A DNA stretch of 20,193 nucleotides from a virus. Lineage: Duplodnaviria; Heunggongvirae; Uroviricota; Caudoviricetes. This document shows, piece by piece, positions 2,517 to 17,986 of the stretch (the stretch's first letter is position 1; each line of letters starts with the position of its first letter). The DNA lies in IMG/VR virus record IMGVR_UViG_3300042894_007411. One strand, 5' to 3'. A model generated the notes under the pieces. The model was not told where the DNA came from, searched no databases, and saw nothing but the letters and a program-made list of their open reading frames with translations. The translations under genes and the position numbers were made by a program.

Positions 2517-2549
2517 GGGATTTGTATATGAAATTCCACAAAAGTTTCC

Positions 2550-2580
2550 AAAAAAAAAAGTTTGTCCGAAGACAAACTTT
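2550..2580 (-). terminator. Rho-independent terminator after tmRNA
   Basis: Minus strand AAAGTTTGTC-TTCG-GACAAACTTT: 10-bp stem with a C(UUCG)G tetraloop followed by a U-run, directly 3' of the tmRNA. Confidence 0.85.
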
Positions 2581-2584
2581 GTTG

Positions 2585-3021
2585 TGGAGCTGGGCGGATT
2601 CGAACCGCCGTCCTGTTAGGTAGATCTTGGAAACTCATTCACAGGCTTAGTCTATTTTTATAAACAGACAAATCTTTACCTCCTAGTTTTTGACTGTGAT
2701 AGGAGATAATCCACAGCGTCTTCCCTTACAGCGATCTGAAGGGTATTGGGCCGGAGCCCGCAGGGTTACTGAGGGTCGACGAATTTTGTGGTACTATTAA
2801 CCCTTTTTCCCACAATTGTGACTTTCTGTTCCTGGGCGTCACCTCCCGGTGTTTAGGCTGCCAAGGCAACTTCAACCGACTCCACTGAACCTAGTCCAGC
2901 AAGAGCAAAAAATGGATTTTCGCCATTTGAAAAGTACTTAGGATATTTAGGTGCTTCCAAAGCTAGCACCGCCTGCATCATGTCAAAGAACTTGTTCCTC
3001 CAGTCGATTCCTGTCAGCCCC
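2585..3021 (-). ncRNA. ssrA: tmRNA (SsrA), about 437 nt; tag (A)GENPFFALAGLGSVESVEVALAA
   Basis: 5' GGGGCTGACAGGAATCGAC pairs with 3' CAGCTCC-A (G3:U alanine identity). T arm GGCGG-TTCGAAT-CCGCC. Internal reading frame 2924..2853 ends ALAA-TAA. Confidence 0.95.
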
Positions 3022-3032
3022 GAAGTTGTGTT

Positions 3033-3040
3033 TATATATG
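3033..3040 (-). promoter_or_regulatory. NATATATA putative promoter upstream of tmRNA
   Basis: CATATATA 11 nt upstream of the mature tmRNA 5' end. Confidence 0.45.
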
Positions 3041-3056
3041 TACGAAAAAAAAAGTT

Positions 3057-3449
3057 TCATAATTTGACCTCAAATCTTTTCGCCATAGCATCTAACTTGT
3101 CAGAAGGAACTCCGTGAACATTTTCACCCATGTGTCGGTTTTCTACGATCGCGGTGGAAACCAGATAACCGAATTTTTCGGCCATTTGAAAATAAGGTTC
3201 CATTTCCCATTCCTGTGTAAATGTATTTGATACGATAATTAAAGGGTGGTCCAAAAACATCCAATCTTTAACCATTGTTTGGCACCACTCGTGAGCCTGC
3301 TTTAATTTGTCACCTTGGAATTTATATTCTCCATCTACCATGAAAAATTGGTCAGCTTCAACGTGAAAAACCCCATAACCTCCTAACCTTTTGGCCAAAG
3401 TTGATTTACCAGATCCGGGCAAACCCCGGAGTAAAAGAAGTGTATTCAT
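3057..3449 (-). CDS. P-loop kinase (AAA_33 / polynucleotide-kinase-like domain)
   Basis: Walker A GLPGSGKS near the N-terminus, then EADQFF, VSNTFT and NVHGVP as in small phage AAA_33 kinases; no phosphatase domain. Confidence 0.8.
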   Translation of the reverse strand: MNTLLLLRGLPGSGKSTLAKRLGGYGVFHVEADQFFMVDGEYKFQGDKLKQAHEWCQTMVKDWMFLDHPLIIVSNTFTQEWEMEPYFQMAEKFGYLVSTAIVENRHMGENVHGVPSDKLDAMAKRFEVKL

Positions 3450-3462
3450 GATTTAAATTTGT

Positions 3463-4137
3463 TTAATTGGTTTTCTTTGTGATTACCCCATCGATGATTC
3501 CATAGGCCTTGGCTTCCTCGGCATCGAGCCAAAAATCACGGGTTGCGTCCTCCTGAACCTTTGCCGGATCCTTACCACAAAAATCACCAAGTAGTTCAAA
3601 TAGGATTTTATTCACCTTTTCCCATTCTTGAAAGTCAATTTTTGCGTCCTGGATGTTTCCTTCGAAGCCTCCAGAAGATTGGTGCAACATCACCTTAGAG
3701 AAGCGAAGAGAAAATCTTTTTCCCTTGGTCCCAGCACCTAATAGCACAGATCCCATAGAAGCTGCCATGCCCGTGTTGATTGTGGAGATGTCAGATTTAA
3801 TGTACTGCATGACATCCACCATTGAAAGTCCAGATTTAACCGATCCCCCTGGTGAATCGATGTGCATTGTGATGTCCCTTTCATCAACGGAATCTAAAAA
3901 CATCAGCTGTGCCTGAACTACTGTCGACATGGAATCACGGACCGGACCTGCCACCCATAAAATTCTGTCCATCATGAGTCTTGAAAAAATGTCCAATTGT
4001 GTCACCCGAAGTTCTCTTTCTTCTAGAATGTAGGGGGTTAGTGAGCTTTGAACTTGTTTTTCATAGTAGTCCAAAGTGGAGGAACTAATTCCTTGAGATA
4101 GGGAGAATTTTTGAAATTCCGAAAAAAGTTTTGACAT
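3463..4137 (-). CDS. clpP: ATP-dependent Clp protease proteolytic subunit
   Basis: LTPYILEER, DIFSRLMMDRI, DSPGGSV; catalytic Ser (AASMG), His (MLHQ) and Asp (RDFW). N-terminal extension of the Bacteroidota type. Confidence 0.97.
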   Translation of the reverse strand: MSKLFSEFQKFSLSQGISSSTLDYYEKQVQSSLTPYILEERELRVTQLDIFSRLMMDRILWVAGPVRDSMSTVVQAQLMFLDSVDERDITMHIDSPGGSVKSGLSMVDVMQYIKSDISTINTGMAASMGSVLLGAGTKGKRFSLRFSKVMLHQSSGGFEGNIQDAKIDFQEWEKVNKILFELLGDFCGKDPAKVQEDATRDFWLDAEEAKAYGIIDGVITKKTN

Positions 4138-4169
4138 GGTTTTAATTTAAAATGTAAAATTTTCTAACC

Positions 4170-4177
4170 CAAATATA
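4170..4177 (-). promoter_or_regulatory. Bacteroidota-type -7 element upstream of clpP
   Basis: CGTATATTTG on the minus strand, the same 10-mer as at 18010..18019. Confidence 0.6.
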
Positions 4178-4336: not shown

Positions 4337-4648
4337 TTAAATCAAAGAGGTGTTTACTGTTCTATTTGCAACCCCGGCTATTCCTGGAAAAGAAGAAAAA
4401 ACGTTGGTCATATCTTTAATCGTCGTGTCCCAAGGAGAATGGCTTTCGTTAAATCTGACCATAGGATAAAATACTGGTGATTCGTAATTTCCACCCCGGA
4501 TTGGCATTTTGCACCTGACTGGCGGGTGACTAACCGCCTGTAAATAAAAAACTGCAGATCCATCTGGAGTAAATCGAATTTCGGACACCTCAATGTCACT
4601 TCTCTCTTTTCCAGTGAGAAAATTTTTTAACTCGTCTCTGAAGTTCAT
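4337..4648 (-). CDS. Hypothetical protein
   Basis: 103-aa ORF with an ATGA overlap with the thioredoxin stop (translational coupling). Confidence 0.6.
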   Translation of the reverse strand: MNFRDELKNFLTGKERSDIEVSEIRFTPDGSAVFYLQAVSHPPVRCKMPIRGGNYESPVFYPMVRFNESHSPWDTTIKDMTNVFSSFPGIAGVANRTVNTSLI

Positions 4649-4929
4649 AATTCTGAAGTGTGTTTTTGAATGAGATCCTGATAAAAACCTTCGGGTTTCA
4701 AACCTTTAACGTTTTCTAAAACTGAATTTTCTTTCATAAATAAAACCGTAGGCAAAGATCTAATTCCAAATTCCGCTGTTCTTTCCTTATTTTCATCAAC
4801 GTTAATTTTCACAATTTCAACGTTTGGATTTTTTGATTTTAAATTTTCTAAAATTGGATTAAGCATACGGCAGGGTCCACACCATTCGGCATAAAAATCT
4901 AAAATTGTAAGTGGAGTAGGGTTTGACAT
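4645..4929 (-). CDS. trxA: Thioredoxin
   Basis: DFYAEWCGPC active site and GIRSLPT cis-Pro loop. Confidence 0.95.
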   Translation of the reverse strand: MSNPTPLTILDFYAEWCGPCRMLNPILENLKSKNPNVEIVKINVDENKERTAEFGIRSLPTVLFMKENSVLENVKGLKPEGFYQDLIQKHTSEL

Positions 4930-4974
4930 AAAAGTTTTTAAAATATTAGATAAAATAGAAAAAATTGTTTCTTT

Positions 4975-5295
4975 TCAATAAACAATAGTTTGTGTCATAT
5001 CTGGATTTGTTCTGTAAATTACCTCGGGACCAGGTGACATGATAACTGAAAGTTCATCTGACAGTGTTTGCAAACTTTGGATAAAATTTTGAACGTCGTC
5101 TTTTTTGGAAGCGGGAAAATTAAAATGAGTCATAACATCATTAGTCAGGGACTCAATAGAATCATCAAATTGCCCGGCATCATGAAAATCCATGTCCTTT
5201 TCATATTTTGAAACGAAGTCTTTGATTTCGTCCTGTTCTACCTGTGACAAAGAAAGATTCGACACAAAATCATCAAATTCTAGAATTCTTTTCAT
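4975..5295 (-). CDS. Hypothetical acidic protein with an N-terminal MKRILEFDDF motif
   Basis: 106-aa ATG ORF; AATATATA motif 21 nt upstream. Confidence 0.6.
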   Translation of the reverse strand: MKRILEFDDFVSNLSLSQVEQDEIKDFVSKYEKDMDFHDAGQFDDSIESLTNDVMTHFNFPASKKDDVQNFIQSLQTLSDELSVIMSPGPEVIYRTNPDMTQTIVY

Positions 5296-5310
5296 ATGAC
5301 AAATTTTTTT

Positions 5311-5324
5311 GATATATATATATT
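5311..5324. promoter_or_regulatory. Bidirectional (AT)n promoter motif between divergent genes
   Basis: GATATATA (+, 5311..5318) and AATATATA (-, 5317..5324) overlap, 25 and 21 nt from the two divergent ATGs. Confidence 0.5.
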
Positions 5325-5343
5325 ATAACCAAATAAATACAAA

Positions 5344-5790
5344 ATGGAAAAACATGATAAGGATAAAGATTTCTTGATCCAAGATTCGACAGAAGAATTT
5401 GAAACAACTGATTTGGATTCAAATGATGAATTCACCCTTGAAGAGGAGGATTTTGACGAAGAGCCAGCAGAAGATATCGTAATTCAACCCCAAGAAGATA
5501 AAGACGAGGATGAAGATGATGATGATGAGGAAGATGATGACGAAGATCAGAAATCATCTGACACCGAAGATGAAATTTCCATGCAATATTACATGGATGA
5601 TGAACCAGGAAAACCGGAGTTTAAAAAATCTAATAAAGAAGAAGATGATGGGGAAGATGATGAGGATGATGAAGATGAATATATTTCTTTAAGTCACTCA
5701 GGGGAAGAACACAAAACCCCACAGAAATCCTCAAAAGGAACAAAGATACTTTCATTTGAAGATTTTGTAGATGGTCTGGACGAGGATTAA
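5344..5790 (+). CDS. Highly acidic low-complexity protein
   Basis: 67 of 148 residues are D/E by my count; C-terminus KILSFEDFVDGLDED. Confidence 0.75.
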   Translation: MEKHDKDKDFLIQDSTEEFETTDLDSNDEFTLEEEDFDEEPAEDIVIQPQEDKDEDEDDDDEEDDDEDQKSSDTEDEISMQYYMDDEPGKPEFKKSNKEEDDGEDDEDDEDEYISLSHSGEEHKTPQKSSKGTKILSFEDFVDGLDED

Positions 5791-5969
5791 TCCTCTGAAG
5801 TAGTACTTCTTCCAAGATCTCTACGGATCAGTTTTCTGACATAGTGAGAAATAGAAACTGGGGGATCACCTTTAGTTAAAGCTTGTTTCGAGATTTTTTT
5901 CCCAAGTTCTTCTAGATCTTCGCTAGAAAGCAACACTTGGATTTTTTCGGATTTTTCTTCTTTTGCCAT
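5787..5969 (-). CDS. Ribbon-helix-helix (CopG/Arc-like) DNA-binding protein
   Basis: KIQVLLS strand, SEDLEELGKKI helix, then SISHYVRKLIRRDL helix; 60 aa. Confidence 0.6.
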   Translation of the reverse strand: MAKEEKSEKIQVLLSSEDLEELGKKISKQALTKGDPPVSISHYVRKLIRRDLGRSTTSED

Positions 5970-5982
5970 GATTGATTTTTTT

Positions 5983-7488
5983 TTAAATTGATTCGAATTT
6001 TATACCTCCATGAGGCATTCCTTTTGTTTTAAGTGGTCTGTAACCTTTCATTTCGTCTGTAACTACGAATGCCTTATGAGGATTAACCATTACCCCCATT
6101 CTTTTCATTAAACCTCTATTTGCCAAAAAAGGAGTGCTTTTTTGAATTCTGTCAGTAGGTGCAACCTTAACATCGGAAATTTTAACTCCATTGAGCATCA
6201 AATCCAATGATATAATAGGTCTTTTTTCTTTTTCCCTTCCAATTTCAGTGTTTGTGTAACCTATAATTTCATCTGCGAAAGTATTTTCACCTATTTTCCA
6301 ATATAGAACTCCATTTTTTTCCTCCAATTCATCAGCGTGAATCGAAGAGGCTGAAGATCCATTACCAGTGTCAAATTTTGCCACCATTTTACCAATTCTG
6401 GGAATATCTAAAGTTTCTAAATAGCCAACCTCCATTTTGCTATAGCTCCAATTATTCTTGTCTATAACATAGTCAATAACATCTCCAACAATAGGTCTTC
6501 CAATTGCCTGAGAAATACCTTCTGTTCCAGGAGAAGAATTGACCTCCAAAATGTAGGGTTTACCCGATTCAGCATCAATCATGATGTCTACTCCACACCA
6601 GTGGCTTCCGACTGCATTAGCGGCTTCACAAGCGAGAGCTGCTGTTTCTTCGTCGATATCATAGGATGAAACCTGCCCTCCCAAAGAGTAATTAGTTCTA
6701 AAGTCTTTTTCAACAGCTTCTCTTTTCATGGAACCGAGAATGGTGTAATTTCCTTTTTTTGAAATAAGTGGATCGAATCTTTTAACGATTACCTGAATTC
6801 TAAGATCAAAATTAGAATTAATCTTTTCTTGTATCAAAATTTCCTTTTCCGGGTCTAGCTTTGCTATGGTCTGATAAACCGACTTTAAAGAAGCATAAGA
6901 ATCAACAATCGAAACTCCAATTCCCTGGGTCCCAGACAGTAATTTCATAACGACAGGAAATTTACCTCCAATCTGCTCCAAAGCGGAATCTAGATTGTCT
7001 TCCCCGTTGACTAATGCGTATCTAGGAACGGGTAAACCCTCACCCTCCAAAATCCGGGAGGTAAGAAATTTGCTTTCACAAATCTCAATTGATTCTAAAG
7101 AGTTAACGCAAAAATATCTAGATGCCTCCAAATCTCTCATGATTTGTTTGGTGTAGGAGTTGGTAATAACTCCTCTCCGAGGAATAATTGCAGTTTTATC
7201 TGGTTTAATTAGAATTTCTTTGCCATCTTTTTTTCCTTCACGAACCATGTGTCCGTTGTAAATTTTTTCCAACGTTATGTTGTTTATGTCCACCACGTTG
7301 CAGACGATTCCCCGATTTTCACACTCGGCCATAAAAGATTTAGAGGTAGGGCTGGGTTTGGCGGTACCGGACAGGATAAGAATTTCTACCCCATCTGAGG
7401 ACTCGGATTCATTCAAGAAGGTTGAAAAATTAACAACAGAAGGAGCAAAGGACATGAAAGTGGGAAGAAATTTTTCCTTATATATCAC
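5983..7488 (-). CDS. rimK: RimK-family ATP-grasp ligase fused to a C-terminal retropepsin-like (RimB / Zn_protease-type) domain
   Basis: ATP-grasp motifs VVMKLLSGTQGIGV, IQEKI, DLRI, FRTNYSLGG, GVDIM, LEVNSSPG; C-terminal AKFDTGNGSSASSIHA. Preferred start is ATG 7455 (MSFAPS), 23 nt below a GATATATA motif; the GTG at 7488 overlaps the upstream stop. Confidence 0.85.
   Translation of the reverse strand: MIYKEKFLPTFMSFAPSVVNFSTFLNESESSDGVEILILSGTAKPSPTSKSFMAECENRGIVCNVVDINNITLEKIYNGHMVREGKKDGKEILIKPDKTAIIPRRGVITNSYTKQIMRDLEASRYFCVNSLESIEICESKFLTSRILEGEGLPVPRYALVNGEDNLDSALEQIGGKFPVVMKLLSGTQGIGVSIVDSYASLKSVYQTIAKLDPEKEILIQEKINSNFDLRIQVIVKRFDPLISKKGNYTILGSMKREAVEKDFRTNYSLGGQVSSYDIDEETAALACEAANAVGSHWCGVDIMIDAESGKPYILEVNSSPGTEGISQAIGRPIVGDVIDYVIDKNNWSYSKMEVGYLETLDIPRIGKMVAKFDTGNGSSASSIHADELEEKNGVLYWKIGENTFADEIIGYTNTEIGREKEKRPIISLDLMLNGVKISDVKVAPTDRIQKSTPFLANRGLMKRMGVMVNPHKAFVVTDEMKGYRPLKTKGMPHGGIKFESI
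7479..7486 (-). promoter_or_regulatory. NATATATA putative late-type promoter
   Basis: GATATATA overlapping the upstream TGA, 23 nt before ATG 7455. Confidence 0.5.
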
Positions 7489-8114
7489 TTTTTTTCAACA
7501 AACTCTGTAAAATAATGTTGATCTGTCTCGAAATTTGTTTTATTTTCTACCGAATAAACATTCATATCAATTTTGTAACCAGGATTTTTTTCTATCCTCT
7601 TAAATGTCCACGCATTATCCATCCAAATTATTCTATTATTTGGATAGATGAAATAATTTCCATTGTCCATCTTGAAAACGTGTCCACATTTGTGTTCTGG
7701 TGTTTCTGAAAAATTGGTATCTAATAAGGATCTATTTTCAAAAGACCAATCAAGAGTAAAAAGGTAAATCCCCTGTCTTTTTAAACCCGAAATTGAAATT
7801 AAATCTGCTCTTAATCCGCTCATTCTTGCCCTCACCTGAACATCGATGTACGAGCTAAAGCAATCCCAATAAATATGCTCGCTTAAAGGCAATAATTCAG
7901 CATCCTTTTTCCAACAAAAAGCGTTAATGGGTCTTCTTGTCCAATTGACCCCATTTTCCAAAAAAGCTTCAAATAATGGAACTCTTTTTTCAATCGAAGC
8001 AACCGAATGAACATCTGCTAAGGTAAAATCACCGTGTCCTTTTTCGTGGTTAAATAAAAATTCATTTCTGATGAAACAGGTCAGAGTTGGGATGTTGTGA
8101 TTTAGATAGGGCAT
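7485..8114 (-). CDS. Conserved phage hypothetical protein
   Basis: 209 aa; motifs NIP..CFIRNEFL, WDCFS, FTLDW, EHKCGH and DNGNYFIYPNNR resemble an uncharacterised family I associate with large aquatic phages. Confidence 0.6.
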   Translation of the reverse strand: MPYLNHNIPTLTCFIRNEFLFNHEKGHGDFTLADVHSVASIEKRVPLFEAFLENGVNWTRRPINAFCWKKDAELLPLSEHIYWDCFSSYIDVQVRARMSGLRADLISISGLKRQGIYLFTLDWSFENRSLLDTNFSETPEHKCGHVFKMDNGNYFIYPNNRIIWMDNAWTFKRIEKNPGYKIDMNVYSVENKTNFETDQHYFTEFVEKK

Positions 8115-8142
8115 TTTTTGGAATTAAAATCGATTTTCGAAT

Positions 8143-8406
8143 TTAAATATCAAGCAAATATTGGATTTCTACTGCATTCTTGATTTTAAGAAGTTCTGCA
8201 CACTGTGTGTAATTTTCTTCTAACAACAAAAAATCGATTATTTCCTGAACTCTCTCGCACTTAAATCCGGAGGTAAAGGTGGGGTCAGAAATAAATTCAA
8301 ATTTGTATTTCAAAATTTGGTTGGCATTTTCAAACATGAATTGCCTGTAATCTTCAAATTCTTGGTCAATCTCGTCCAGAAGTGGGGTTGTCGTTTCTTT
8401 TTTCAT
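8143..8406 (-). CDS. Hypothetical protein with a UVR-like ENYxxCxE motif
   Basis: EENYTQCAELLKIK near the C-terminus. Confidence 0.55.
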   Translation of the reverse strand: MKKETTTPLLDEIDQEFEDYRQFMFENANQILKYKFEFISDPTFTSGFKCERVQEIIDFLLLEENYTQCAELLKIKNAVEIQYLLDI

Positions 8407-8566
8407 TTTGAATTAATTGTTTCATATAAGACATAGATTCTTCGGGTCCAGTCAAAGCGTCGGGCTTGTGCCAATACAGTTTCATGAATCTTTGGTCATC
8501 TGCCATTCTTTCCCTAATAAGAATTAGTTCCTCTACAGAAGGTAAAGTGCGTCGGTGGAATCCCAT
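8366..8566 (-). CDS. Small hypothetical protein
   Basis: 66-aa ATG ORF starting 1 nt after the polymerase stop; overlaps the next ORF by 41 nt. Confidence 0.5.
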   Translation of the reverse strand: MGFHRRTLPSVEELILIRERMADDQRFMKLYWHKPDALTGPEESMSYMKQLIQNEKRNDNPTSGRD

Positions 8567-8567
8567 T

Positions 8568-9734
8568 TTAAAAAAGAGTATTAATCATGAAAAGGTTGGG
8601 AGAAATCGGGTGGTGACCCATTACTTCTATGAAGCGGTTGATTGGATCTAAAATTGTTTTGGTGAACTGTTGGTCTAAATCCACCGGAGGAGCATACTCG
8701 TAAGGGTAATTTCCTTGAGAATAGGCAAAAACATTGTTTTCCTGTGGATTATTGGTTTTAACAAAGTAAAATCTAACTTTTTCTCCGCTTCCTAACAGGG
8801 GATATTTGTCCTTGTACTTCGAGTTGTTTAGTATGTAATTATGATAGCCAGAAGCTCTGACGTGAATAGGGGTAGCCTTGGCAAATTCGAAACCTGTGGT
8901 GTCGTTTAAAATGAACTTCTCGTAGTTGTTAACCGAAATAGCCAAGGCGATCCGTTCTGGTTCCTGGGCTTTAAAATCTTTCTTGATTGATTTTAACTCT
9001 GTAACGAACTCCCTAATGTTGAAAGACCTACCTTTCGTTAAAATAAACTTAGTTAAGTACATTAGCTTCTCACGAACAAAGGCAGGTGTGCCTCCTTTTA
9101 TCATCTCAACTCCAGTGGTTTTGATGTTGCTTAGAGGTTCGAACTCCACACCATCTGAGTAAACTGTGTTCGTAACATATTTTTTCTTGCCAAGAAAGAT
9201 GGCATTAATCGACAAGGTCTCAAGTTCGAAATCCTGATAGTTTTCCGTGTTCCATTTTTTGGCGTAAATCTCAAAGCACTTTTTAAGATAACCTTTTAAT
9301 CTAAATTCATTGATTTTTAAAATCAATTCCTTTGGATCTCCTTGCCAGTTACAAGACGCCACGACTTCCTGAAATGTTACATAATTGGAGTCAGTATCAC
9401 CATAGATAGTTAAGGGCCGGTGTACCTTCTTGACATCGGTGACTCCTAGTTTTTCATGAAGATCGACATCATCGTGCCAGAAATCGTGAAAGTATCTATG
9501 AATAATTTTTTCTGAATACTTGATTAAATCCTGTCCCTGAAGAGTAACTGCTTCTGCAACGTCTGTATTAAAGCAAGCAAAGAAATTATTTCCTACCGCT
9601 CCATAGATGGAGTTCATCGTTAACTTTACGGCTTGTTCCTCGTTCTTGAGCTCATTCTTTAGGGAGGTGAGCTCTTCTATTTTTAATTTTAGTTCTTTCG
9701 CATTTAGATTATGTGGTTCCATTCTTGTTCCCAA
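8568..9734 (-). CDS. polB: Family B DNA polymerase, C-terminal subunit only (split gp43-like)
   Basis: Motif B KLTMNSIYG, motif C YGDTDS, then KKKY and GVEMIKGGTP; no exonuclease domain or motif A (DxxSLYP). Likely start is ATG 9722. Confidence 0.9.
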   Translation of the reverse strand: MGTRMEPHNLNAKELKLKIEELTSLKNELKNEEQAVKLTMNSIYGAVGNNFFACFNTDVAEAVTLQGQDLIKYSEKIIHRYFHDFWHDDVDLHEKLGVTDVKKVHRPLTIYGDTDSNYVTFQEVVASCNWQGDPKELILKINEFRLKGYLKKCFEIYAKKWNTENYQDFELETLSINAIFLGKKKYVTNTVYSDGVEFEPLSNIKTTGVEMIKGGTPAFVREKLMYLTKFILTKGRSFNIREFVTELKSIKKDFKAQEPERIALAISVNNYEKFILNDTTGFEFAKATPIHVRASGYHNYILNNSKYKDKYPLLGSGEKVRFYFVKTNNPQENNVFAYSQGNYPYEYAPPVDLDQQFTKTILDPINRFIEVMGHHPISPNLFMINTLF

Positions 9735-9740
9735 TCTAAT

Positions 9741-10502
9741 TTATTTCTCGATGATTCCAATCGCAGTGGAAGTTTTTGTCTGCTCTGAACAGAAAACGAT
9801 GCGATTATCGTGAACATAACAGTGGGATGATTCAGAGTCTACATAATTCAAATGCGATTTGTAAATTGAGGAATCCATTTTACCTGACCCCTTGATTTCT
9901 GAAGTTCCAATGTTTAATTTAAAGTCAAAAGAATCTCCGGTTACCCTAACGTTGTCTTTTTCAATTCGGAAAACAAGAAGTTCCTCTGCGTTGGACTCCA
10001 TGCCACACAAAGAAGATAAAGAAGAAAAATCGGAAGAATACAATTTGAAGTTTGCTTCTGAATCTTCTTTCGAATGAACCATTTCTCCAATTGAATCCTC
10101 GACATAAGACAGCAAAGAAAGATCTGCACACTTAATCTTAATTTTCAGCGAGTTTGAAATGACATTGAGTTCGGTAGCCACACAAGATCCATCCAATTTA
10201 GAAATCTCAAGATTCAAAAAGATTTCTTCTTCTGCACGGTAGTACCTGAAGCAGTCTATCAATCTAACGACATCGATCAAACCAATTTTAATTCTTTCGC
10301 ACTTCAATTTTGCGAATCCTTCGAGTGGTTCGAAAATTTGATCTACTGGAATCGATGCAAATTTCATAACAGATTTATCTGGTGTGTGAATTTTGCAAAA
10401 AAGTTCAGTTTCATTCAATTCCAATAGAACGCTTCGATCTACAACCTTTAATTTCTTCAGAAATGCGATTAAGTTGGTGGTACTTAAAACCCTAATTTTC
10501 AT
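9741..10502 (-). CDS. Probable DNA polymerase sliding clamp (gp45/PCNA-like)
   Basis: 253 aa, directly upstream of PolB; alternating strand/helix pattern, and IGLIDVVRLIDCF recalls the gp45 AIYDLNGFL segment. Not confirmed. Confidence 0.55.
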   Translation of the reverse strand: MKIRVLSTTNLIAFLKKLKVVDRSVLLELNETELFCKIHTPDKSVMKFASIPVDQIFEPLEGFAKLKCERIKIGLIDVVRLIDCFRYYRAEEEIFLNLEISKLDGSCVATELNVISNSLKIKIKCADLSLLSYVEDSIGEMVHSKEDSEANFKLYSSDFSSLSSLCGMESNAEELLVFRIEKDNVRVTGDSFDFKLNIGTSEIKGSGKMDSSIYKSHLNYVDSESSHCYVHDNRIVFCSEQTKTSTAIGIIEK

Positions 10503-10566: not shown

Positions 10567-11952
10567 TTATTCTTCTTCTTGTTCTTCGGTTGGTGTTTCT
10601 TCTTCTACCTCGAAAATTTGAATGTCGGAATCCAAATTTCTGACGGAAGGTTGTGAAGAGGTAACAAGTAAGGTGGCAGAAGTCTTTTTAACCGGAATCA
10701 CCTCGAGAAGTTTTACGACCTTTTCTTGTGCTTTAATAGCCACCTGTGTTGTCTTTATTTGTTGTTTGATGGATTTAATTTCCTCTTGAATTTCAACAAT
10801 GTGATTGGTAGAAAGCTTTACTAGTTGAATCGATGAAAGACGTCCAGAGATGGATTTATTAAACTGGGTCAGGAATTCCAAAATCTCTTCGTTTTTCCTT
10901 TTGCTTCCGCTCATGTAAATTAAAAATTTCAATTTTGCCTCCAGAAATTCCATTTCGTTGGTCAAATCCTGAACATCCCGATTTAATCTTTTAAGTTTAA
11001 CATATTCAAGATGAGATTTGAATTCTTCGAGATAGGACTTTACAGAATCAAACTGCCTGACCCCTCCATCTTTGATAAAAACAATGTCCTCCTTAACCAA
11101 AATTTGAGTTAGCTTTTTTACTGTCTGTGTTAAAGATGTAAACTCGGCAGAGGTGCTTTTATAAAACCAAAGGGTAATGTCACACTTGCTTTGTGAGTTA
11201 TTGTTTAACTTGTAGTCGACGCCCAGATTTTCCAATTTTCTGACAATTTTTTCCATAAAGGAATCAAATCTCATCACTGGGGGAAGATCAAAAATACGTA
11301 TGGATTTTTTTTGTTGGTTAGCCTCAAACCCGCTCTCCAATAACCACACATTTTCGTGATCTTCGTATTTGTAAATTTTACCGGAGAAATCTTTAAAGTA
11401 GGGCTTTAATACCTTGTTCTTTCCCTGTAAAAATTCAACAATGTCCTCAAGCTTACGTGGCAAGATATTGGTTCGATATCCTACTGCTATGCCAATGATA
11501 TGGGTTAGCAATCCGATGGGTATTTCCACGTTAAGCCAGTCGTGGCCTCCCTCTTCGTTCTGCTCATTCAAATCGGAATGCCGAGTAATGATATCTTTCA
11601 CACCACGGTTTATTCTCACCGAAGTGTATCTTGGAGCGGATGGATTTGGATTGACCGGTGATCCAAAAAATCCATCTCCTTCTAAAATGGAGAAGGAACA
11701 TCCAAAGGGTCTGGCCAATTTTGAAATAGCTCCGGCCAAAGAAGAATCTCCGTGGTGATATAAACCAGTTCTGATGACCTCTCCAACTAAACCAATTGTT
11801 TTGTGAAAAGTAGACGGACTATTTTCTAAAATAATTCTTTGAACTGGGGTTAGAGAATCGTAGAAATTTGGAATACCTCTGGACTGAAGAACATAAAGAG
11901 CATAATCCCTATATTGGGTATTAATTTGGTCTGTAATCGAAATAAAGTTCAA
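10567..11952 (-). CDS. Type IIA DNA topoisomerase, breakage-reunion subunit (gp52 / GyrA-ParC-like, no CTD)
   Basis: YALYVLQSRGIP..YDSLTPVQR, YHHGDSS, catalytic APRYT, GIAVGY; TTG start; acidic tail. Confidence 0.92.
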   Translation of the reverse strand: MNFISITDQINTQYRDYALYVLQSRGIPNFYDSLTPVQRIILENSPSTFHKTIGLVGEVIRTGLYHHGDSSLAGAISKLARPFGCSFSILEGDGFFGSPVNPNPSAPRYTSVRINRGVKDIITRHSDLNEQNEEGGHDWLNVEIPIGLLTHIIGIAVGYRTNILPRKLEDIVEFLQGKNKVLKPYFKDFSGKIYKYEDHENVWLLESGFEANQQKKSIRIFDLPPVMRFDSFMEKIVRKLENLGVDYKLNNNSQSKCDITLWFYKSTSAEFTSLTQTVKKLTQILVKEDIVFIKDGGVRQFDSVKSYLEEFKSHLEYVKLKRLNRDVQDLTNEMEFLEAKLKFLIYMSGSKRKNEEILEFLTQFNKSISGRLSSIQLVKLSTNHIVEIQEEIKSIKQQIKTTQVAIKAQEKVVKLLEVIPVKKTSATLLVTSSQPSVRNLDSDIQIFEVEEETPTEEQEEE

Positions 11953-13200: not shown

Positions 13201-13554
13201 TTAGATTTCTCCATCTGTATATATCTTTCCTGGACTATTTTTTATTAGATAAACAATTAGGGTATTAATAATGACACTTGCCCCGCTAATCCAAAATCCA
13301 GAAAAAAGTATTGTTAGAATTTGGTAAAAATACCCATCATATTCCAATAAAAACATGAAAGGATTAACCATCTGATTGGCGGAAATCAGCAAACCAAATA
13401 AGATTCCCACCCAAAAGCCAGAACACTGCATACAGGTCAATAATTTTCCCAAAGTTGGGTACATTACCTGCAAATAAATTCTGAGAGGATCAAATATGGA
13501 ACCATTGACTAAAATACTGGTGATGGCCCAACCTAAAAAACTAAATTCAATCAT
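13201..13554 (-). CDS. Small multi-TM membrane protein with CxxC (DUF1360-like)
   Basis: About 3 hydrophobic segments; LGKLLTCMQCSGFWVG resembles the DUF1360 LLTCxxCxxxW motif. Confidence 0.55.
   Translation of the reverse strand: MIEFSFLGWAITSILVNGSIFDPLRIYLQVMYPTLGKLLTCMQCSGFWVGILFGLLISANQMVNPFMFLLEYDGYFYQILTILFSGFWISGASVIINTLIVYLIKNSPGKIYTDGEI
13218..13225 (-). promoter_or_regulatory. NATATATA putative late-type promoter inside the 3' end of the upstream gene
   Basis: GATATATA 26 nt before the start at 13191. Confidence 0.45.
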
Positions 13555-14588
13555 GACGGAAAGATTTTCTTGTAAGTAGACAAGAAATCCCTTTGTGTTT
13601 CATTTAATTCTTTAGGAATTCTTAATTTTAATCTGATTAATATGTCTCCTCTGAAATCAGAGTTAAATTCAGGAATTCCCTTTCCTGCTAACCGGAGAAT
13701 CTTTCCTGGATCTGATCCAGGAGGTATTGAAATTTTATATTCTCCGTCTGGAATTTCTAAATTTGGAATTTTAACCTCTGCACCCATACAGGCATCATAA
13801 AAATCAACATCCATATCACAATACAAATTCAGGGAATCACGTTTGTAAAAATGATGTTGAATATCCTCTACAGACACAATTAAGTCTCCAGGATCACATG
13901 GGGATTTTTCAAAATCTCCACCTCCGTCGATCTTGAAATTTATACCCGTAACTGAACCTTTAGGAACCGTAATGTCTACCTGTGTTGTCTGTCTTATGGT
14001 TCCAGAACCAGAACAAGAATGGCAAGGTGTTTTGGCAGTTTCTCCAAATCCACCACAGGAAAAACACGTTCCATCCACAGCCATTTGACCAAACCCTGTA
14101 TTTACAATTTTTCTATTTACTCCTGTTCCATTACACTGAACACAAAAAACGACCTCAGCATTATGTGCTCCTGTCCCTTTGCACGGTTCACAAGGAAATC
14201 TTTTGAATAGTGTTACCTTTTTCTGTGCTCCCTTTAGTACATCCGCTAGATTAATTTGCAATCTGGCGTTTATATTTTTCCCCTTTCGAATTTGTGTTTT
14301 ATGTTGATGCCAGGAGTTTGCTGAATTGAAATTATTAAAAAAATCTGCAAATGGACTTCCCCAGTTTGCTTGATTAGGTCCGCTCCACTTCGGAGAATCA
14401 TATGCTTTCTTTTTTGAAGGATCCCCTAAAGTTTCGTAGGCTTCGTTTATTTGTTTAAATTTTGCCTCTGCAGAGGTGTCTCCTGGATTTTTATCTGGAT
14501 GATATTTTAAGGCCAATCTCCTGTAACTTTTTTTTATTGCATCAGAAGACGCTTCTCTTCCAACTTCTAAAATTTGATAAAAGTCCAT
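13551..14588 (-). CDS. dnaJ: Molecular chaperone DnaJ (type I)
   Basis: J domain with HPD, short G/F region, four CxxCxGxG repeats, C-terminal substrate-binding domain. Confidence 0.95.
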   Translation of the reverse strand: MDFYQILEVGREASSDAIKKSYRRLALKYHPDKNPGDTSAEAKFKQINEAYETLGDPSKKKAYDSPKWSGPNQANWGSPFADFFNNFNSANSWHQHKTQIRKGKNINARLQINLADVLKGAQKKVTLFKRFPCEPCKGTGAHNAEVVFCVQCNGTGVNRKIVNTGFGQMAVDGTCFSCGGFGETAKTPCHSCSGSGTIRQTTQVDITVPKGSVTGINFKIDGGGDFEKSPCDPGDLIVSVEDIQHHFYKRDSLNLYCDMDVDFYDACMGAEVKIPNLEIPDGEYKISIPPGSDPGKILRLAGKGIPEFNSDFRGDILIRLKLRIPKELNETQRDFLSTYKKIFPS

Positions 14589-15271: not shown

Positions 15272-16192
15272 TTAAACATCAAAATCTTTCAGATATTTCA
15301 ATAAAGCCTTTTCCTTCATTTTTACCTCGAATTCAATTGAAAAATCGTAACCGTAATTTTTTACCTTCTCATAAATCCAATCTGAGTGTGCAAGATCCTT
15401 TGTTGAAGAATCTTCCCATTGTTTTTTCGAATCTGAATAGTGAACAATTGGACTGATTTCTTTTGGCCAGGTTTTGATACAAAGGTCAAGTGCTTCTTGT
15501 TCCGATAGATCAGATGGATTACACTTATGATGTAAATAATCATAGGTCAAGGGAACTCCAATTTTTTTGAAAACAAGTTCGTACAATTCAGAAGGAGTGA
15601 ATCCCGATTTTTTGTCGTCATTTTCTACAACCAAACGTTTTTTAACTGATTCGGGTAACATCTGAAAATTTTCACAAAATCTAGATGCAGCTTCTTCCTT
15701 AGTGGGTTGGGAAGTGTAAACATGAACGTTGATCGGATAAAAGTGTGTTTGGTCCAATCCCATGAGATCCATGATTTCTGCGTGCTGTCTTAAATCTTTT
15801 ACTGCCTTGATCACAACATCTTCCCTCTGTGATGCTAGAACGGAATAAGGCGATGGATGAAATGTAATTCTTTGATCTCCTGCTTTGGCAATAGATCCAG
15901 CCTCTGCCAAAACAGTTTTTATTTCCTCGAAGTGTGGAAGATCATGAAATTCATATTCGCTGTACCAAGGGAAAATATCAGATGACATTCTATACATCCG
16001 GATTCCCATTTCATTGTTCCATGAAATAATCTTAACCAAATCTAAGCAGTTCAAAAGTGCCGTTTCGGAAGCGAAGGAAATTCCTTTTTCTTCAAAAGTT
16101 TTTTTGACCATAGACCGATTGGTGGTAATTCTATTTAATCCTTTACCTTCACCCAAAGTAAGGTTTATACAACAATATCCAAATCTGTGCAT
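15272..16192 (-). CDS. uvsE: UV DNA damage endonuclease (UVDE)
   Basis: RFGYCCIN, MYRMSSDIFP, RITFHP, INVHV, RLVVENDD, LTYDYLHH, VHYS, AHSD, EVKMKEKA. Confidence 0.93.
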   Translation of the reverse strand: MHRFGYCCINLTLGEGKGLNRITTNRSMVKKTFEEKGISFASETALLNCLDLVKIISWNNEMGIRMYRMSSDIFPWYSEYEFHDLPHFEEIKTVLAEAGSIAKAGDQRITFHPSPYSVLASQREDVVIKAVKDLRQHAEIMDLMGLDQTHFYPINVHVYTSQPTKEEAASRFCENFQMLPESVKKRLVVENDDKKSGFTPSELYELVFKKIGVPLTYDYLHHKCNPSDLSEQEALDLCIKTWPKEISPIVHYSDSKKQWEDSSTKDLAHSDWIYEKVKNYGYDFSIEFEVKMKEKALLKYLKDFDV

Positions 16193-16201
16193 AATGTAAA
16201 T

Positions 16202-17986
16202 CTATGACTTTTTTGACAACCAAATCTTTCTTAATTCGGAAGAATTTCCAAAAGCCATCTCTAGCATTTGTCCTGATTTTTTATCCCGTACTATGGTAAC
16301 AACTCTTTTGTTTTTCATGACATAATCCCAATCATCCAAAGACAAAGATCCCAATCCCTTAAGATATCTGACATTTGCCAGTTTTTTTCGTGCTGTCGCG
16401 GTTTTAAATTCTGTTAGGGAGTAAAAATATTCCTTCGATTTGTCCCCGGTCGTGACCAATGGGGTATCCAAAAAATTCAACATTTTCTTGTCTATAATCC
16501 AGGGAAACCAATTGTAAAATAAAGAAATCAGAAGTGAGGTGATGTGAGATCCATCTGGATCCTGGTCGGTGGCAATCACAATTTTTTCATAAGGACATTC
16601 GCCCTGGGAATTTTCTGGATCTAAATTTAAAATCTGCATCAATTCCAAAATTTCACGATTATCAGAAAGATCCGATAAATTTCTGGCGTTTTTAATTTTT
16701 CCCTTCAAAGCATATACTCCATCTCTAGATGGATTTCTTTTTTGCAAAATCGAGCCCATGGCTGAAAGACCCTCCACTATAAATAAATTTTCTGCTATTC
16801 TTGAGGTTGGAGGAAAATATTTGTGTGAAAATTTAACATTGACATTTTTCTTTTCTTTTCTAATTTTCTTTAAAGCTGCGTCTTTCTTTCTTCTTTCGAC
16901 TTTTTCCTTGATGGTTTTGAAAAGTGGTGTGGTATAAAACTTTCGGAGAGATCCCTCAAAAGATTCCAAAATAATTTTTTCTACCTCTTCTCTTTTTGTC
17001 ACAAATCTAGTTTTATTTTGATCACCAAATTTAACTAAGGAAGGAGGTAAATTCAAAATAAAACAGAAGTCATAAAAGTGATGGGCAAGAGAATCTTCTA
17101 AGACGTCGGCGATCTGGTCCATGATGATTTTCTGGTGAATTCCTGAACACATGGCACTGTTTACAAAAGATACAGACCCAGATTCCCCCTCCTTCTCCCA
17201 AAATAAAATTTCACCCAATTGGGTTTTGAACGACATTTGTTGAAGAGAAGAAGTAGAAATTTGATGGATATCTGATTTCCAAACAAATTCTAGCTGAATA
17301 TTTTTCGTGTGGGCTTCAGATTCTAAAACTCTTTTTTTCAGGATTAATAGAGAAATTAAAATATCCTTATTCCATTTACAGTGTTCGAATATTTCATGTA
17401 AAGGAATAAATGTAACTGAAGTCCCAAGATTTTGAGTTGTTCTTTTTTGAATTTTAGGTTTGGTCGATTTGAAGTTAACCCATTGTTGTGAATAAACTTC
17501 TTTGGAATTGGTCGAAACGATTGAGAATTCGGATGATAATGCGTTAACCAAACTAACCCCCATTCCATTGGTTCCTATGAGTGTGTCCGATAATCCATCA
17601 TTGTCAAAGTTGCTTCCCGCTCTCAACATAGAAACTGCCGTTTCAATGTTACTTACTCCACTTTTCTCGTTAATTTTAGAACCATCTACAAATCCTTCTC
17701 CCGTATCTGCTATTGTGATCTTATTTGTTGAGGGTTCCACTTCAATACGAATCAATTTCATTGGTTTCTTCATTCTTTTGGCTTCATCTACACAGTTAGA
17801 AAAAACCTCATCGAAGAGCTTATACATACCCACAGATATGTGCCTGGGGACCAATGAAATTTTGTCTTTATCGACCTTTGGAATGGATTCTTCCGTTATC
17901 TTGACAGATCCTACATAAATGGTGGGCCTTTTGAGAATGTGCTCAAAGTCGCTGAGAACCTGGATTTTCTTTTTAGATTGGGTCAT
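16202..17986 (-). CDS. Type IIA DNA topoisomerase, ATPase+TOPRIM subunit (gp39+gp60 / GyrB-ParE-like)
   Basis: EHILKRPTIYVGS, DEVFSNCVDE, DTGEG, GTNGMGVS (GHKL); FIVEGLSA, ATDQDPDGSHI (TOPRIM); RYLKGLGS. Confidence 0.95.
   Translation of the reverse strand: MTQSKKKIQVLSDFEHILKRPTIYVGSVKITEESIPKVDKDKISLVPRHISVGMYKLFDEVFSNCVDEAKRMKKPMKLIRIEVEPSTNKITIADTGEGFVDGSKINEKSGVSNIETAVSMLRAGSNFDNDGLSDTLIGTNGMGVSLVNALSSEFSIVSTNSKEVYSQQWVNFKSTKPKIQKRTTQNLGTSVTFIPLHEIFEHCKWNKDILISLLILKKRVLESEAHTKNIQLEFVWKSDIHQISTSSLQQMSFKTQLGEILFWEKEGESGSVSFVNSAMCSGIHQKIIMDQIADVLEDSLAHHFYDFCFILNLPPSLVKFGDQNKTRFVTKREEVEKIILESFEGSLRKFYTTPLFKTIKEKVERRKKDAALKKIRKEKKNVNVKFSHKYFPPTSRIAENLFIVEGLSAMGSILQKRNPSRDGVYALKGKIKNARNLSDLSDNREILELMQILNLDPENSQGECPYEKIVIATDQDPDGSHITSLLISLFYNWFPWIIDKKMLNFLDTPLVTTGDKSKEYFYSLTEFKTATARKKLANVRYLKGLGSLSLDDWDYVMKNKRVVTIVRDKKSGQMLEMAFGNSSELRKIWLSKKS

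What the first reader, a model, noticed from the sequence alone, without database searches (positions are those of the whole stretch)
2550..4177. Phage clpP - kinase - tmRNA arranged as one apparent tag-and-degrade transcription unit
Seen: a host-type promoter box (4170), intact clpP, a P-loop kinase, tmRNA and a strong UUCG terminator lie in series on one strand, with no convincing terminator between them. Established: tmRNA tags stalled nascent chains with a C-terminal LAA degron that ClpXP destroys. Inference: the phage co-expresses the tagging RNA and the peptidase to run its own ribosome rescue, for example after host-defence or phage-driven mRNA cleavage, and the kinase may heal RNA 5' ends. 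No smpB or clpX/clpC is in the window.
Basis: partly seen in the sequence, partly recalled or inferred. Interest (0 to 1): 0.75.

Follow-up and report, generated by a model that had tools for sequence, protein, structure and literature searches.

The report
Phage clpP, RNA kinase, tmRNA neighbours
A 219-kb lake phage of Bacteroidota really has a ClpP protease gene, an RNA-repair-type kinase gene and its own expressed ribosome-rescue RNA (tmRNA) in a row, but the row is a one-off local rearrangement, not a conserved tag-and-degrade operon.

Summary
All parts exist as described on the minus strand. They are a Bacteroidota-type promoter box, an intact ClpP, a 130-aa P-loop kinase, a tmRNA and a strong terminator. 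No terminator lies between them.

New points:
- The tag is 23 aa (GENPFFALAGLGSVESVEVALAA). Tags in 33 Bacteroidota genomes are 9-10 aa.
- Four lake metatranscriptomes hold 256-430-nt RNA contigs covering only the tmRNA.
- The kinase has the T4 Pnk / bacterial Pnkp fold and sits beside RNA ligases in relatives.
- An ATATATAA phage-promoter box lies 10 nt before the tmRNA, and also in its nearest relative.

The three-gene order is not conserved:
- Of 80 ClpP relatives, 79 have no tmRNA within 6 kb. Where both genes were located they are 5-160 kb apart.
- The closest tmRNA relatives (92%) show no clpP.
- Near relatives' tmRNAs have their own promoter and terminator.

ClpP does lie in a shifting neighbourhood of tRNAs, RNA-repair genes, smpB and a ClpC-like ATPase. 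A looser functional link therefore stays plausible. This record has no smpB and no Clp ATPase, so host partners are needed.

The scan reported the same theme before on other genomes (ClpP-SmpB pairs, tmRNA beside truncated ClpC, long tags).

The parts
4170..4177 (-). Bacteroidota-type -7 promoter box TATATTTG, 32 nt before the clpP ATG
   Evidence: Read. TAnnTTTG occurs 46 times in sense and 28 in antisense in upstream spacers. The full TTTG-N17-23-TAnnTTTG form is 8 to 0. TATATTTG occurs only 31 times in 439 kb of both strands. No matching -33 TTTG is present here.
3463..4137 (-). clpP: cellular-type ClpP proteolytic subunit, 224 aa, catalytic Ser127/His152/Asp201
   Evidence: PF00574 1.3e-58. 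NF011091 249 bits over residues 7-222. PDB 8r04 E 2.7e-48 with the triad aligned. The closest cellular ClpPs are from Bacteroidota at 44-48% identity. One 234-nt RNA contig covers 3833-4063.
3057..3449 (-). Kinase-only polynucleotide 5'-kinase-like protein (Pnk-like), 130 aa
   Evidence: AAA_33 3.7e-12. phrog_2071 2.9e-39 and phrog_505 'polynucleotide kinase' 3.2e-8. AlphaFold2 model pLDDT 86. Top fold matches are C. thermocellum Pnkp kinase and T4 Pnk, TM 0.75-0.79. It lies next to Rnl1, Rnl2 or a metallophosphoesterase in relatives.
3032..3039 (-). ATATATAA box (phage promoter-like, probably late class), ending 10 nt before the tmRNA 5' G
   Evidence: 42 of 50 GATATATA copies in the genome lie within 60 nt before a gene. 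The chance of an ATATATAA in a given 30-nt stretch is about 0.003. AATATATAA lies 5 nt before the 92%-identical tmRNA of L204, where the rest of the upstream DNA is unrelated.
2582..3021 (-). ssrA: one-piece tmRNA, 440 nt, acceptor stem with G3:U70, discriminator A, CCA not encoded
   Evidence: ARAGORN. Rfam 67.2 bits, positions 1-374 of 374. RNA contigs of 256-430 nt at 99% identity or more from 4 metatranscriptomes cover 2584-3013 only, with zero cover on both flanks.
2853..2924 (-). Tag reading frame: GGC resume codon to TAA, GENPFFALAGLGSVESVEVALAA*
   Evidence: The resume codon is placed by the Rfam alignment. The same frame, length class and AA/VA ending are kept in 20 relatives' tmRNAs, after a conserved (t/a)aaa(t/c) lead-in in most. 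L204 differs by 2 residues.
2547..2580 (-). Intrinsic terminator: 10-bp stem, UUCG loop, U10
   Evidence: -11 kcal/mol, z -3.2. The same stem carries a GUAA loop in L204.

Best explanation
These are three separately functional genes that ended up next to each other in this phage lineage. They lie in a fast-rearranging part of the genome that holds translation and RNA-repair genes.

1. clpP encodes an active-looking ClpP of Bacteroidota descent. It sits behind a host-sigma-type promoter. The record has no unfoldase, so it must dock onto a host Clp ATPase.
2. The kinase is a Pnk-like RNA 5'-kinase. It probably works with the phage's Rnl1 and Rnl2 ligases, which lie 76 and 31 kb away here but beside it in relatives.
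3. ssrA is made as a discrete, stable RNA of about 430-440 nt. It most likely has its own ATATATAA promoter, with read-through from the clpP promoter possible. It ends at a strong terminator and needs host RNase P, CCA-adding enzyme, AlaRS, EF-Tu and SmpB. It adds a 23-aa tag ending in ALAA.

Tagging by this tmRNA followed by degradation through Clp proteases, phage ClpP included, is plausible. It is a loose functional link, not a conserved operon.

Shown: gene identities, expression of the tmRNA as RNA, lack of conserved synteny, and the neighbourhood pattern in relatives.
Inferred: promoter use, host partners, kinase substrate, and any link between the tag and ClpP.
For: Identities.

Expression: four metatranscriptomes from four studies hold contigs at 99% identity or more, confined to 2584-3013, at depth about 10. 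Both flanks have no cover. clpP has one contig at depth 2.4.

No conserved synteny:
- tmRNA lies within 6 kb of clpP in 1 of 80 loci.
- Distances are 5.6-158 kb where both were located in whole records.
- No clpP was found in G093, G094 or G095, whose tmRNA is 92% identical.

Own promoter for the tmRNA:
- TAAATTTG or TATCTTTG boxes with an upstream terminator in L089, L091 and L094, and ttaATATATAA in L103 with close variants in L096-L107.
- ATATATAA here and in L204.

Rearrangement: genes upstream of clpP are collinear with G001, G006, G008 and G011. In G001, 14.6 kb holding Rnl2, Rnl1 and other genes separate the kinase from the tmRNA.

Neighbourhood of clpP in 80 loci: ClpC-like ATPase 26, kinase 24, metallophosphoesterase 20, cREC_REC 16, Rnl1 11, Rnl2 10, smpB 9, tRNAs 28.

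No SmpB or Clp ATPase in the record.
Against: - There is no terminator and only 13-nt and 35-nt spacers between the genes. Co-transcription from the clpP promoter cannot be excluded and may be the main early source of the tmRNA.
- The box before the tmRNA is the only CATATATA variant in the genome. Its use and timing are untested.
- Clp genes and trans-translation genes are juxtaposed in three different ways in this phage group: clpP-smpB, ClpC-like beside ssrA, and clpP-pnk-ssrA here. That hints at more than chance.
- The record is 88% complete, so smpB or an ATPase could lie in the missing part.
- RNA contigs cannot show true ends, strand or precursors.
Confidence: 0.62

Rival explanations
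1. clpP, kinase and ssrA form one dedicated tag-and-degrade transcription unit driven from the 4170 promoter. The phage co-expresses tagger and peptidase to run ribosome rescue after RNA cleavage, and the kinase heals RNA ends.
For: - Same strand, 13-nt and 35-nt spacers, no internal terminator, one strong terminator at the end.
- The TATATTTG box before clpP is specific to this genome; relatives lack one there.
- The kinase is Pnk-like.
- In relatives clpP is directly followed by smpB, or ssrA sits beside a ClpC-like ATPase.
Against: - The order is unique to this record and its near-identical strains.
- clpP was not found in the closest tmRNA relatives.
- A promoter-like box lies between kinase and tmRNA and is kept in L204.
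- Near relatives' tmRNAs are stand-alone units.
- clpP-smpB adjacency is a single inherited event, one clade with 98/93 support.
- The record has no smpB and no unfoldase.
Confidence: 0.17
2. The adjacency carries no shared function. ClpP serves another phage purpose, such as turnover of host or phage regulators or defence proteins. The tmRNA only keeps ribosomes free, and the kinase belongs to tRNA repair. The genes are neighbours only because accessory genes pile up in this region.
For: - Presence is mosaic among records rated 85% complete or more. All but G093 carry ClpP, which was the search query; G093, found through its tmRNA, shows none. All have a tmRNA or tmRNA-like hit. SmpB is in 9 of 11 records at 90% or more, and a ClpC-like ATPase in 6 of 11.
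- Neighbours of clpP vary widely.
- In some relatives clpP sits among tRNA genes.
- In others clpP overlaps a cREC_REC RNA-repair gene.
Against: Clp and trans-translation parts are placed together in three separate ways. The tag keeps the AA-type C-terminus that Clp unfoldases read in bacteria (the recognition rule is established knowledge from E. coli ssrA-ClpX).
Confidence: 0.18
3. The ClpP homologue is the phage's head-maturation (prohead) protease and has nothing to do with tmRNA tags.
For: PHROG matches labelled 'head maturation protease', with phrog_94 at 5.4e-34. No T4 gp21-type protease (PF03420) was found in the record, but that search had no positive control.
Against: - Cellular ClpP models score 193-249 bits over the full length.
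- The ClpP-related head-maturation model scores 66 bits against a cut-off of 120.
- The neighbours are tRNA, RNA-repair, smpB and Clp ATPase genes, not head genes.
- The N-terminal region matches the Bacteroidota ClpP model from position 3.
Confidence: 0.03

Closest known systems
Bacterial trans-translation with ssrA-tag proteolysis (tmRNA-SmpB, then ClpXP/ClpAP; E. coli model)
   Same: One-piece tmRNA with G3:U70, a resume codon after an A-rich lead-in, and a tag ending ALAA. ClpP has the Ser-His-Asp triad.
   Different: It is encoded by a phage. The tag is 23 aa, against 9-10 aa in 33 Bacteroidota genomes. No SmpB, ClpX, ClpA or ClpC is in the record. The tmRNA is barely similar to host tmRNAs (nhmmer 16.5 bits).
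tmRNA, SmpB and Clp genes of huge phages (Al-Shayeb et al. 2020, PMC7162821; Bacillus phage G with ClpP, ClpX and a tmRNA, PMC12484599)
   Same: A large phage carrying translation-rescue and Clp protease genes. Relatives of this phage carry the full set of tmRNA, SmpB, ClpP and a ClpC-like ATPase.
   Different: This genome keeps only tmRNA and ClpP, and places them in series with a Pnk-like kinase. The papers I read do not describe the long tag family or the link to RNA-repair genes.
T4 polynucleotide kinase with RNA ligase 1 (tRNA repair after anticodon nuclease attack) and bacterial Pnkp
   Same: P-loop kinase fold, TM 0.75-0.79 to 1ly1, 2ia5, 4jt2 and 4gp6. It lies beside Rnl1, Rnl2 and a metallophosphoesterase in relatives.
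   Different: It has a kinase domain only (130 aa) with no fused 3'-phosphatase. No metallophosphoesterase homologue was found in this record. The ligases lie 31 and 76 kb away here.
Two-piece ssrA of marine T4-like phages such as Melnitz (PMC9004378)
   Same: A T4-related phage with its own tmRNA behind a predicted promoter. That paper already proposes that the phage tags proteins for degradation.
   Different: The tmRNA here is one-piece, of Bacteroidota type, with no riboswitch. It sits beside clpP and has a long tag.

Membership tests
tmRNA (Rfam RF00023) | Covariance-model score above the gathering threshold over the full model | tested here: met
   67.2 bits against 47, model positions 1-374; the same result on the whole record.
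tmRNA (Rfam RF00023) | tRNA-like domain with the G3:U70 alanine identity pair and a T-arm | tested here: met
   5' GGGGCUG pairs with CAGCUCC, which gives G3:U. The T-arm GGCGGUUCGAAUCCGCC aligns at high posterior probability.
tmRNA (Rfam RF00023) | Internal reading frame from a resume codon to a stop, ending in a hydrophobic degron | tested here: met
   GGC to TAA, 23 codons, ending VALAA. The frame is kept in 20 relatives.
tmRNA (Rfam RF00023) | Four pseudoknots | tested here: inconclusive
   PK1 aligns well. The PK2-PK4 region aligns with low posterior probability and a 93-nt insertion. No separate pseudoknot test was made.
tmRNA (Rfam RF00023) | Charging with alanine and use on ribosomes with SmpB | not testable with these tools
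   Only presence as RNA is shown. No SmpB is in the record.
ClpP (Pfam PF00574; NCBIfam TIGR00493 / NF011091) | Family model above its cut-off | tested here: met
   Pfam 198.3 bits against a cut-off of 20.2.
ClpP (Pfam PF00574; NCBIfam TIGR00493 / NF011091) | Equivalog-level score, meaning the same function as cellular ClpP by NCBI's cut-offs | tested here: not met
   NF011091 249 bits against 361, and TIGR00493 193 against 308.6. It is a diverged, virus-specific branch at 63-84% identity within the branch and 44-48% to cellular ClpP.
ClpP (Pfam PF00574; NCBIfam TIGR00493 / NF011091) | Ser-His-Asp catalytic triad | tested here: met
   Ser127, His152 and Asp201 align with the triad of 8r04.
ClpP (Pfam PF00574; NCBIfam TIGR00493 / NF011091) | Docking of a Clp ATPase (ClpX, ClpA or ClpC) | not tested
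   No ATPase is in the record. Relatives carry a ClpC-like ATPase 0.3-2.4 kb upstream of clpP.
ClpP-related head maturation protease (NF045542) | Model score above its cut-off | tested here: not met
   66.4 bits against a cut-off of 120.
Polynucleotide 5'-kinase (T4 Pnk / bacterial Pnkp kinase domain) | P-loop kinase fold closest to solved polynucleotide kinases | tested here: met
   Foldseek ranks 1-13 are C. thermocellum Pnkp and T4 Pnk, probability 1.00, TM 0.74-0.79. phrog_505 E 3.2e-8.
Polynucleotide 5'-kinase (T4 Pnk / bacterial Pnkp kinase domain) | Catalytic Asp after the P-loop and the arginines that hold the phosphate | tested here: inconclusive
   E31-A32-D33, R105 and R125 are invariant in 15 homologues. 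I did not check residue-by-residue equivalence to T4 Pnk.
Polynucleotide 5'-kinase (T4 Pnk / bacterial Pnkp kinase domain) | Partner end-healing phosphatase and RNA ligase | tested here: inconclusive
   Rnl1 and Rnl2 are present in the record but 76 and 31 kb away. No metallophosphoesterase homologue was found in the record. Relatives have Rnl1-phosphoesterase-kinase in series.
Single operon (one transcription unit) | Same strand, short spacers, no internal terminator | tested here: met
Single operon (one transcription unit) | No internal promoter | tested here: not met
   An ATATATAA box at 3039-3032 belongs to a motif class that lies before genes genome-wide. It is kept before the tmRNA of L204. 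This is a consensus match only; its use is untested.
Single operon (one transcription unit) | Gene order conserved in relatives | tested here: not met

The most novel reading that the evidence does not exclude
The long tag (21-31 aa), conserved only in these phages, may be a phage-private degron. It would route truncated proteins to phage Clp parts: ClpP here, and the N-domain-less ClpC-like ATPase in relatives. On this reading the shifting block of Pnk/Rnl RNA repair, tRNAs, tmRNA/SmpB and Clp genes is one counter-measure against host immunity that cuts tRNA or mRNA. It would repair what can be repaired, rescue the stalled ribosomes and recycle the fragments.
Probability: 0.2. Interest if true: 0.8.

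Novelty: new variant of a known kind. Interest (0 to 1): 0.4.

Why it matters
Phage tmRNAs, SmpB and Clp genes are already published for huge phages, so their presence here is not news. This case adds four things.

1. Environmental RNA evidence that such a phage tmRNA accumulates as a discrete RNA.
2. A family of phage tags two to three times longer than those of the host phylum. This asks what reads the extra residues.
3. The observation that ClpP in this phage group keeps company with RNA-repair and ribosome-rescue genes.
4. A clear negative: the neat three-gene 'operon' is a lineage-specific accident of gene order.

If the wider link between RNA repair, ribosome rescue and proteolysis holds, it would point to a phage answer to RNA-cutting host defences. 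That could be tested with reporters carrying the two kinds of tag.

Tried and rejected
- ARAGORN's tag for the window (VPQNSSTLSNPAGSGPIPFRSL) is rejected. It starts 130 nt downstream of the Rfam-aligned resume codon, has no AA ending and is not conserved.
- No RNA contig bridges kinase to tmRNA or runs past the terminator. Contigs cannot show precursors, so this neither supports nor refutes co-transcription.
- The PF03420 (T4 gp21 protease) search of the record found nothing, but it had no positive control anywhere. It is uninformative.
- A blastn search of the phage collection with the 2-kb stretch gave only weak partial hits: a 634-kb uncultured phage on clpP and Aeromonas phages on the kinase.
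- A sequence search of the kinase against solved structures gave only P-loop matches. The fold search was needed.
- The sigma-70 consensus scan found no more sites than in shuffled sequence (29 against 25.2). The host is Bacteroidota-like, so that consensus is the wrong one.
- Third-codon-position excess in the tag frame is modest (5/6/11 and 13/9/16 variable sites). On its own it does not prove peptide-level selection.
- No complex prediction was run. No protein-protein binding claim rests on these data.
Full report
WHAT IS THERE

The window is bases 173327-193519 of a 219,475-bp IMG/VR virus record. The record is linear and CheckV rates it 88% complete. It has 35.8% G+C.

The following lie in series on the minus strand.
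- A TATATTTG box at 4177-4170.
- clpP at 3463-4137.
- A 130-aa P-loop kinase at 3057-3449.
- A tmRNA at 2582-3021.
- A hairpin terminator at 2557-2580 followed by ten U.

The terminator folds at -11 kcal/mol, z -3.2. The 13-nt and 35-nt spacers between the genes do not fold. No terminator-like site lies between the promoter box and the end of the tmRNA.

THE PARTS

ClpP
- It matches PF00574 at 1.3e-58.
- Cellular ClpP models score 193-249 bits over the full length. The ClpP-related head-protease model reaches only 66 of the 120 bits it needs.
- Ser127, His152 and Asp201 align with the catalytic triad of solved ClpPs.
- The nearest cellular ClpPs are from Bacteroidota at 44-48% identity. Hits at 63-77% are large contigs filed in assorted metagenome bins and are probably phage.

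tmRNA
- It scores 67.2 bits against Rfam's threshold of 47.
- It has the G3:U70 pair and discriminator A. CCA is not encoded.
- ARAGORN's tag is a mis-call. The resume codon placed by the Rfam alignment (GGC, window 2924) opens a 23-codon frame, GENPFFALAGLGSVESVEVALAA, that ends at TAA.
- Twenty relatives' tmRNAs keep this frame after a lead-in that is (t/a)aaa(t/c) in most. Nineteen have tags of 21-31 aa and all 20 end in AA or VA; one tag is short (DNAELAMAA).
- ARAGORN itself reads this frame in relative L211.
- Thirty-three Bacteroidota genomes have tags of 9-10 aa, such as GENNYALAA.
- The phage tag therefore begins and ends like a host tag but is about 2.5 times as long.

Kinase
- It matches AAA_33, and PHROG families named 'ATPase' and 'polynucleotide kinase'.
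- A model built from 15 homologues has pLDDT 86.
- Its best fold matches are the kinase domain of Clostridium thermocellum Pnkp and T4 polynucleotide kinase, TM 0.75-0.79.
- Homologues occur in 628 GenBank phage records. Some lie under or beside annotated RNA ligase genes.

HOST AND PROMOTERS

Many genes of the record are preceded by TTTG-N19-21-TAnnTTTG, the Bacteroidota promoter type.
- The -7 box is 46 sense to 28 antisense in upstream spacers.
- The full two-part form is 8 to 0.
- The clpP box cgTATATTTG fits the -7 element, but it has no good -33 element.

A second motif, [GA]ATATATA, is 56 sense to 15 antisense. Forty-two of 50 GATATATA copies lie within 60 nt before a gene.
- One variant, CATATATAA, ends 10 nt before the tmRNA 5' end.
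- The chance of an ATATATAA in a given 30-nt stretch is about 0.003.
- The tmRNA of L204 is 92% identical. It has AATATATAA 5 nt upstream, although the rest of its upstream DNA is unrelated.
- The tmRNA therefore probably has its own promoter. Read-through from the clpP promoter remains possible.

EXPRESSION

Fourteen lake or freshwater metagenome runs hold at least half of the sampled words of the 1.9-kb stretch.

Four metatranscriptomes from four studies hold contigs of 256-430 nt at 99% identity or more. The three longest (414-430 nt) span 2584/2585/2600 to 3013, and a 256-nt contig spans 2594-2849. All lie within the tmRNA.
- Word depth there is about 5-11.
- Cover is zero on 3028-3780 in all four runs. 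On 1900-2557 it is zero except one partial, roughly 90%-identical piece at 2445-2485 in X18.
- One run also has a 234-nt contig on clpP at depth 2.4.

The empty flanks argue against DNA carry-over. Contigs cannot give true ends, strand or precursors. This shows that the tmRNA accumulates as RNA in nature, and nothing more.

SYNTENY

ClpP has more than 590 relatives in IMG/VR. The best 80 (74-83% identity) lie mostly on contigs of 50-430 kb.
- ARAGORN, blastn and nhmmer find a tmRNA within 6 kb of clpP in one of them, 5.6 kb away.
- On 48 whole records, 23 have a tmRNA above threshold. All 11 records that are at least 90% complete have a tmRNA or tmRNA-like hit.
- The distance to clpP is 5.6-15.5 kb in the four nearest relatives and 37-158 kb in others. 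In one case the genes are on opposite strands.
- In L089, L091 and L094 the tmRNA follows a terminator hairpin and a TAAATTTG or TATCTTTG box. In L103 it follows ttaATATATAA, with close variants of that box in L096-L107.
- Searching from the tmRNA side found three further records with a 92%-identical tmRNA and the same two downstream genes. A ClpC-like ATPase gene lies divergently upstream, and no clpP was found anywhere in those records, which are 61-85% complete.
- Genes upstream of clpP (window 4337-10502) are collinear with G001, G006, G008 and G011. In G001, 14.6 kb holding an Rnl2-like ligase, an Rnl1-like ligase and other genes separate the kinase from the tmRNA, and 16 tRNA genes follow the tmRNA.

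The three-gene row is a local compaction.

WHAT CLPP KEEPS COMPANY WITH

Counts within 6 kb of clpP in the 80 loci:

| Neighbour | Loci |
|---|---|
| tRNA genes | 28 |
| ClpC-like ATPase | 26 |
| Kinase | 24 |
| Metallophosphoesterase | 20 |
| cREC_REC domain protein | 16 |
| Rnl1 | 11 |
| Rnl2 | 10 |
| smpB | 9 |

- The ATPase has AAA, AAA_lid_9, UVR, AAA_2 and ClpB_D2-small domains and no Clp_N domain.
- In eight of the nine smpB loci, smpB starts within about 45 nt of the clpP stop.
- A typical cassette is L024: rnl1, phosphoesterase, kinase, two unknown genes, then cREC_REC overlapping clpP by 4 nt, and later rnl2.
- On a ClpP tree the smpB-adjacent loci form one clade (98/93 support), so that juxtaposition is a single inherited event.

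Clp and trans-translation parts thus meet in three arrangements: clpP-smpB, ClpC-like beside ssrA, and clpP-pnk-ssrA here. That is suggestive of a functional theme, but it is a small number of events.

The components are mosaic.
- Six complete records carry tmRNA, SmpB, ClpP and the ATPase.
- This record has ClpP and tmRNA only.
- Its nearest tmRNA relatives have the ATPase and tmRNA, and no clpP was found in them.

This pattern implies that each phage part can work with host partners.

MECHANISM I COMMIT TO

clpP is transcribed from a host-type promoter, and the kinase is probably transcribed with it. The tmRNA is produced from its own box, from read-through, or from both. It is then trimmed by host RNase P and 3' processing enzymes, given CCA, charged by AlaRS, and used with host SmpB.

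It adds a 23-aa ALAA-ended tag to peptides on stalled ribosomes. Clp proteases, including phage ClpP docked on a host ATPase, degrade them. The kinase phosphorylates 5'-OH RNA ends for the phage ligases.

- Shown: gene identities, RNA presence, synteny facts.
- Inferred: everything about timing, partners and substrates.

COMPARISON WITH WHAT IS KNOWN

Phage tmRNAs are documented.
- PMC4131195 lists Bacillus phage G and mycobacteriophages.
- PMC9004378 finds them in 2.3% of phage genomes and already suggests that phages tag proteins for degradation.
- Huge phages carry tmRNA and SmpB (PMC7162821).
- Phage G has ClpP, ClpX and a tmRNA (PMC12484599).

In the papers I read I did not find the long tag family, the link to RNA-repair genes or this arrangement. 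My literature search was limited to two queries.

Earlier notes of this scan on other genomes report the same themes: a ClpP-SmpB pair, tmRNA beside a truncated ClpC, and 23-residue tags. I reached the same results here independently, before reading them.

VERDICT

This is a new variant of a known kind, and interest is moderate.

Noticed in passing
window 13551-14588 (-): A full-length DnaJ/Hsp40 with J domain, CXXCXGXG zinc-finger domain and C-terminal domain, encoded by the phage 9.4 kb from clpP. It is a second protein-quality-control gene in the same window.
   Followed up: partly
L024:5603-6004 and 6001-6675; also L010, L035, L060, L062, L072, L077: In several relatives a cREC_REC protein (PF20274, 'cyclic-phosphate processing receiver domain') lies directly before clpP. 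In L024 it overlaps clpP by 4 nt, downstream of rnl1, a metallophosphoesterase and the kinase. ClpP there looks like part of an RNA-repair cassette.
   Followed up: partly
G093/G094/G095 (loci L204, L208, L210) compared with the window: Complementary losses. Records with a 92%-identical tmRNA carry a ClpC-like ATPase beside it but show no clpP. This record carries clpP beside the tmRNA but no ATPase.
   Followed up: partly
window 2557-2580 compared with L204:3412-3440: The tmRNA terminator keeps the same 10-bp stem but swaps one stable tetraloop for another, UUCG here and GUAA in L204.
   Followed up: no
window 5983-7488 (-): A 501-aa RimK-like ATP-grasp ligase with a weak C-terminal match to an ATP-dependent zinc protease domain. 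It is conserved and collinear in G001, G006, G008 and G011 (48-71% identity).
   Followed up: no
window 8568-9734 (-) and 9741-10502 (-): A 388-aa ORF matches only the C-terminal two thirds of family B DNA polymerase (profile positions 137-451). It may be one piece of a split polymerase.
   Followed up: no
L129-L137 (genome contigs): Contigs of 44-254 kb carrying this phage-type ClpP (63-77% identity) are filed in bins named Saprospirales, Bacteroidetes, Flavobacteriaceae, Prochlorococcus, Gammaproteobacteria and Methanobacterium. They are probably phage contigs mis-binned into those genomes.
   Followed up: no
L205:5347-5421 and L207:3604-3680: ARAGORN reports tRNA-like genes with a two-base 'anticodon' (tRNA-??? 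aa) inside the tRNA arrays next to relatives' tmRNAs. They may be related to the tRNA-chassis RNAs noted earlier in this genome.
   Followed up: no
window 10567-11952, 16202-17986, 15272-16192 (-): Topoisomerase II subunit genes (a DNA_topoisoIV domain and a Toprim domain on separate ORFs) and a UvdE UV-damage endonuclease lie on the same strand.
   Followed up: no
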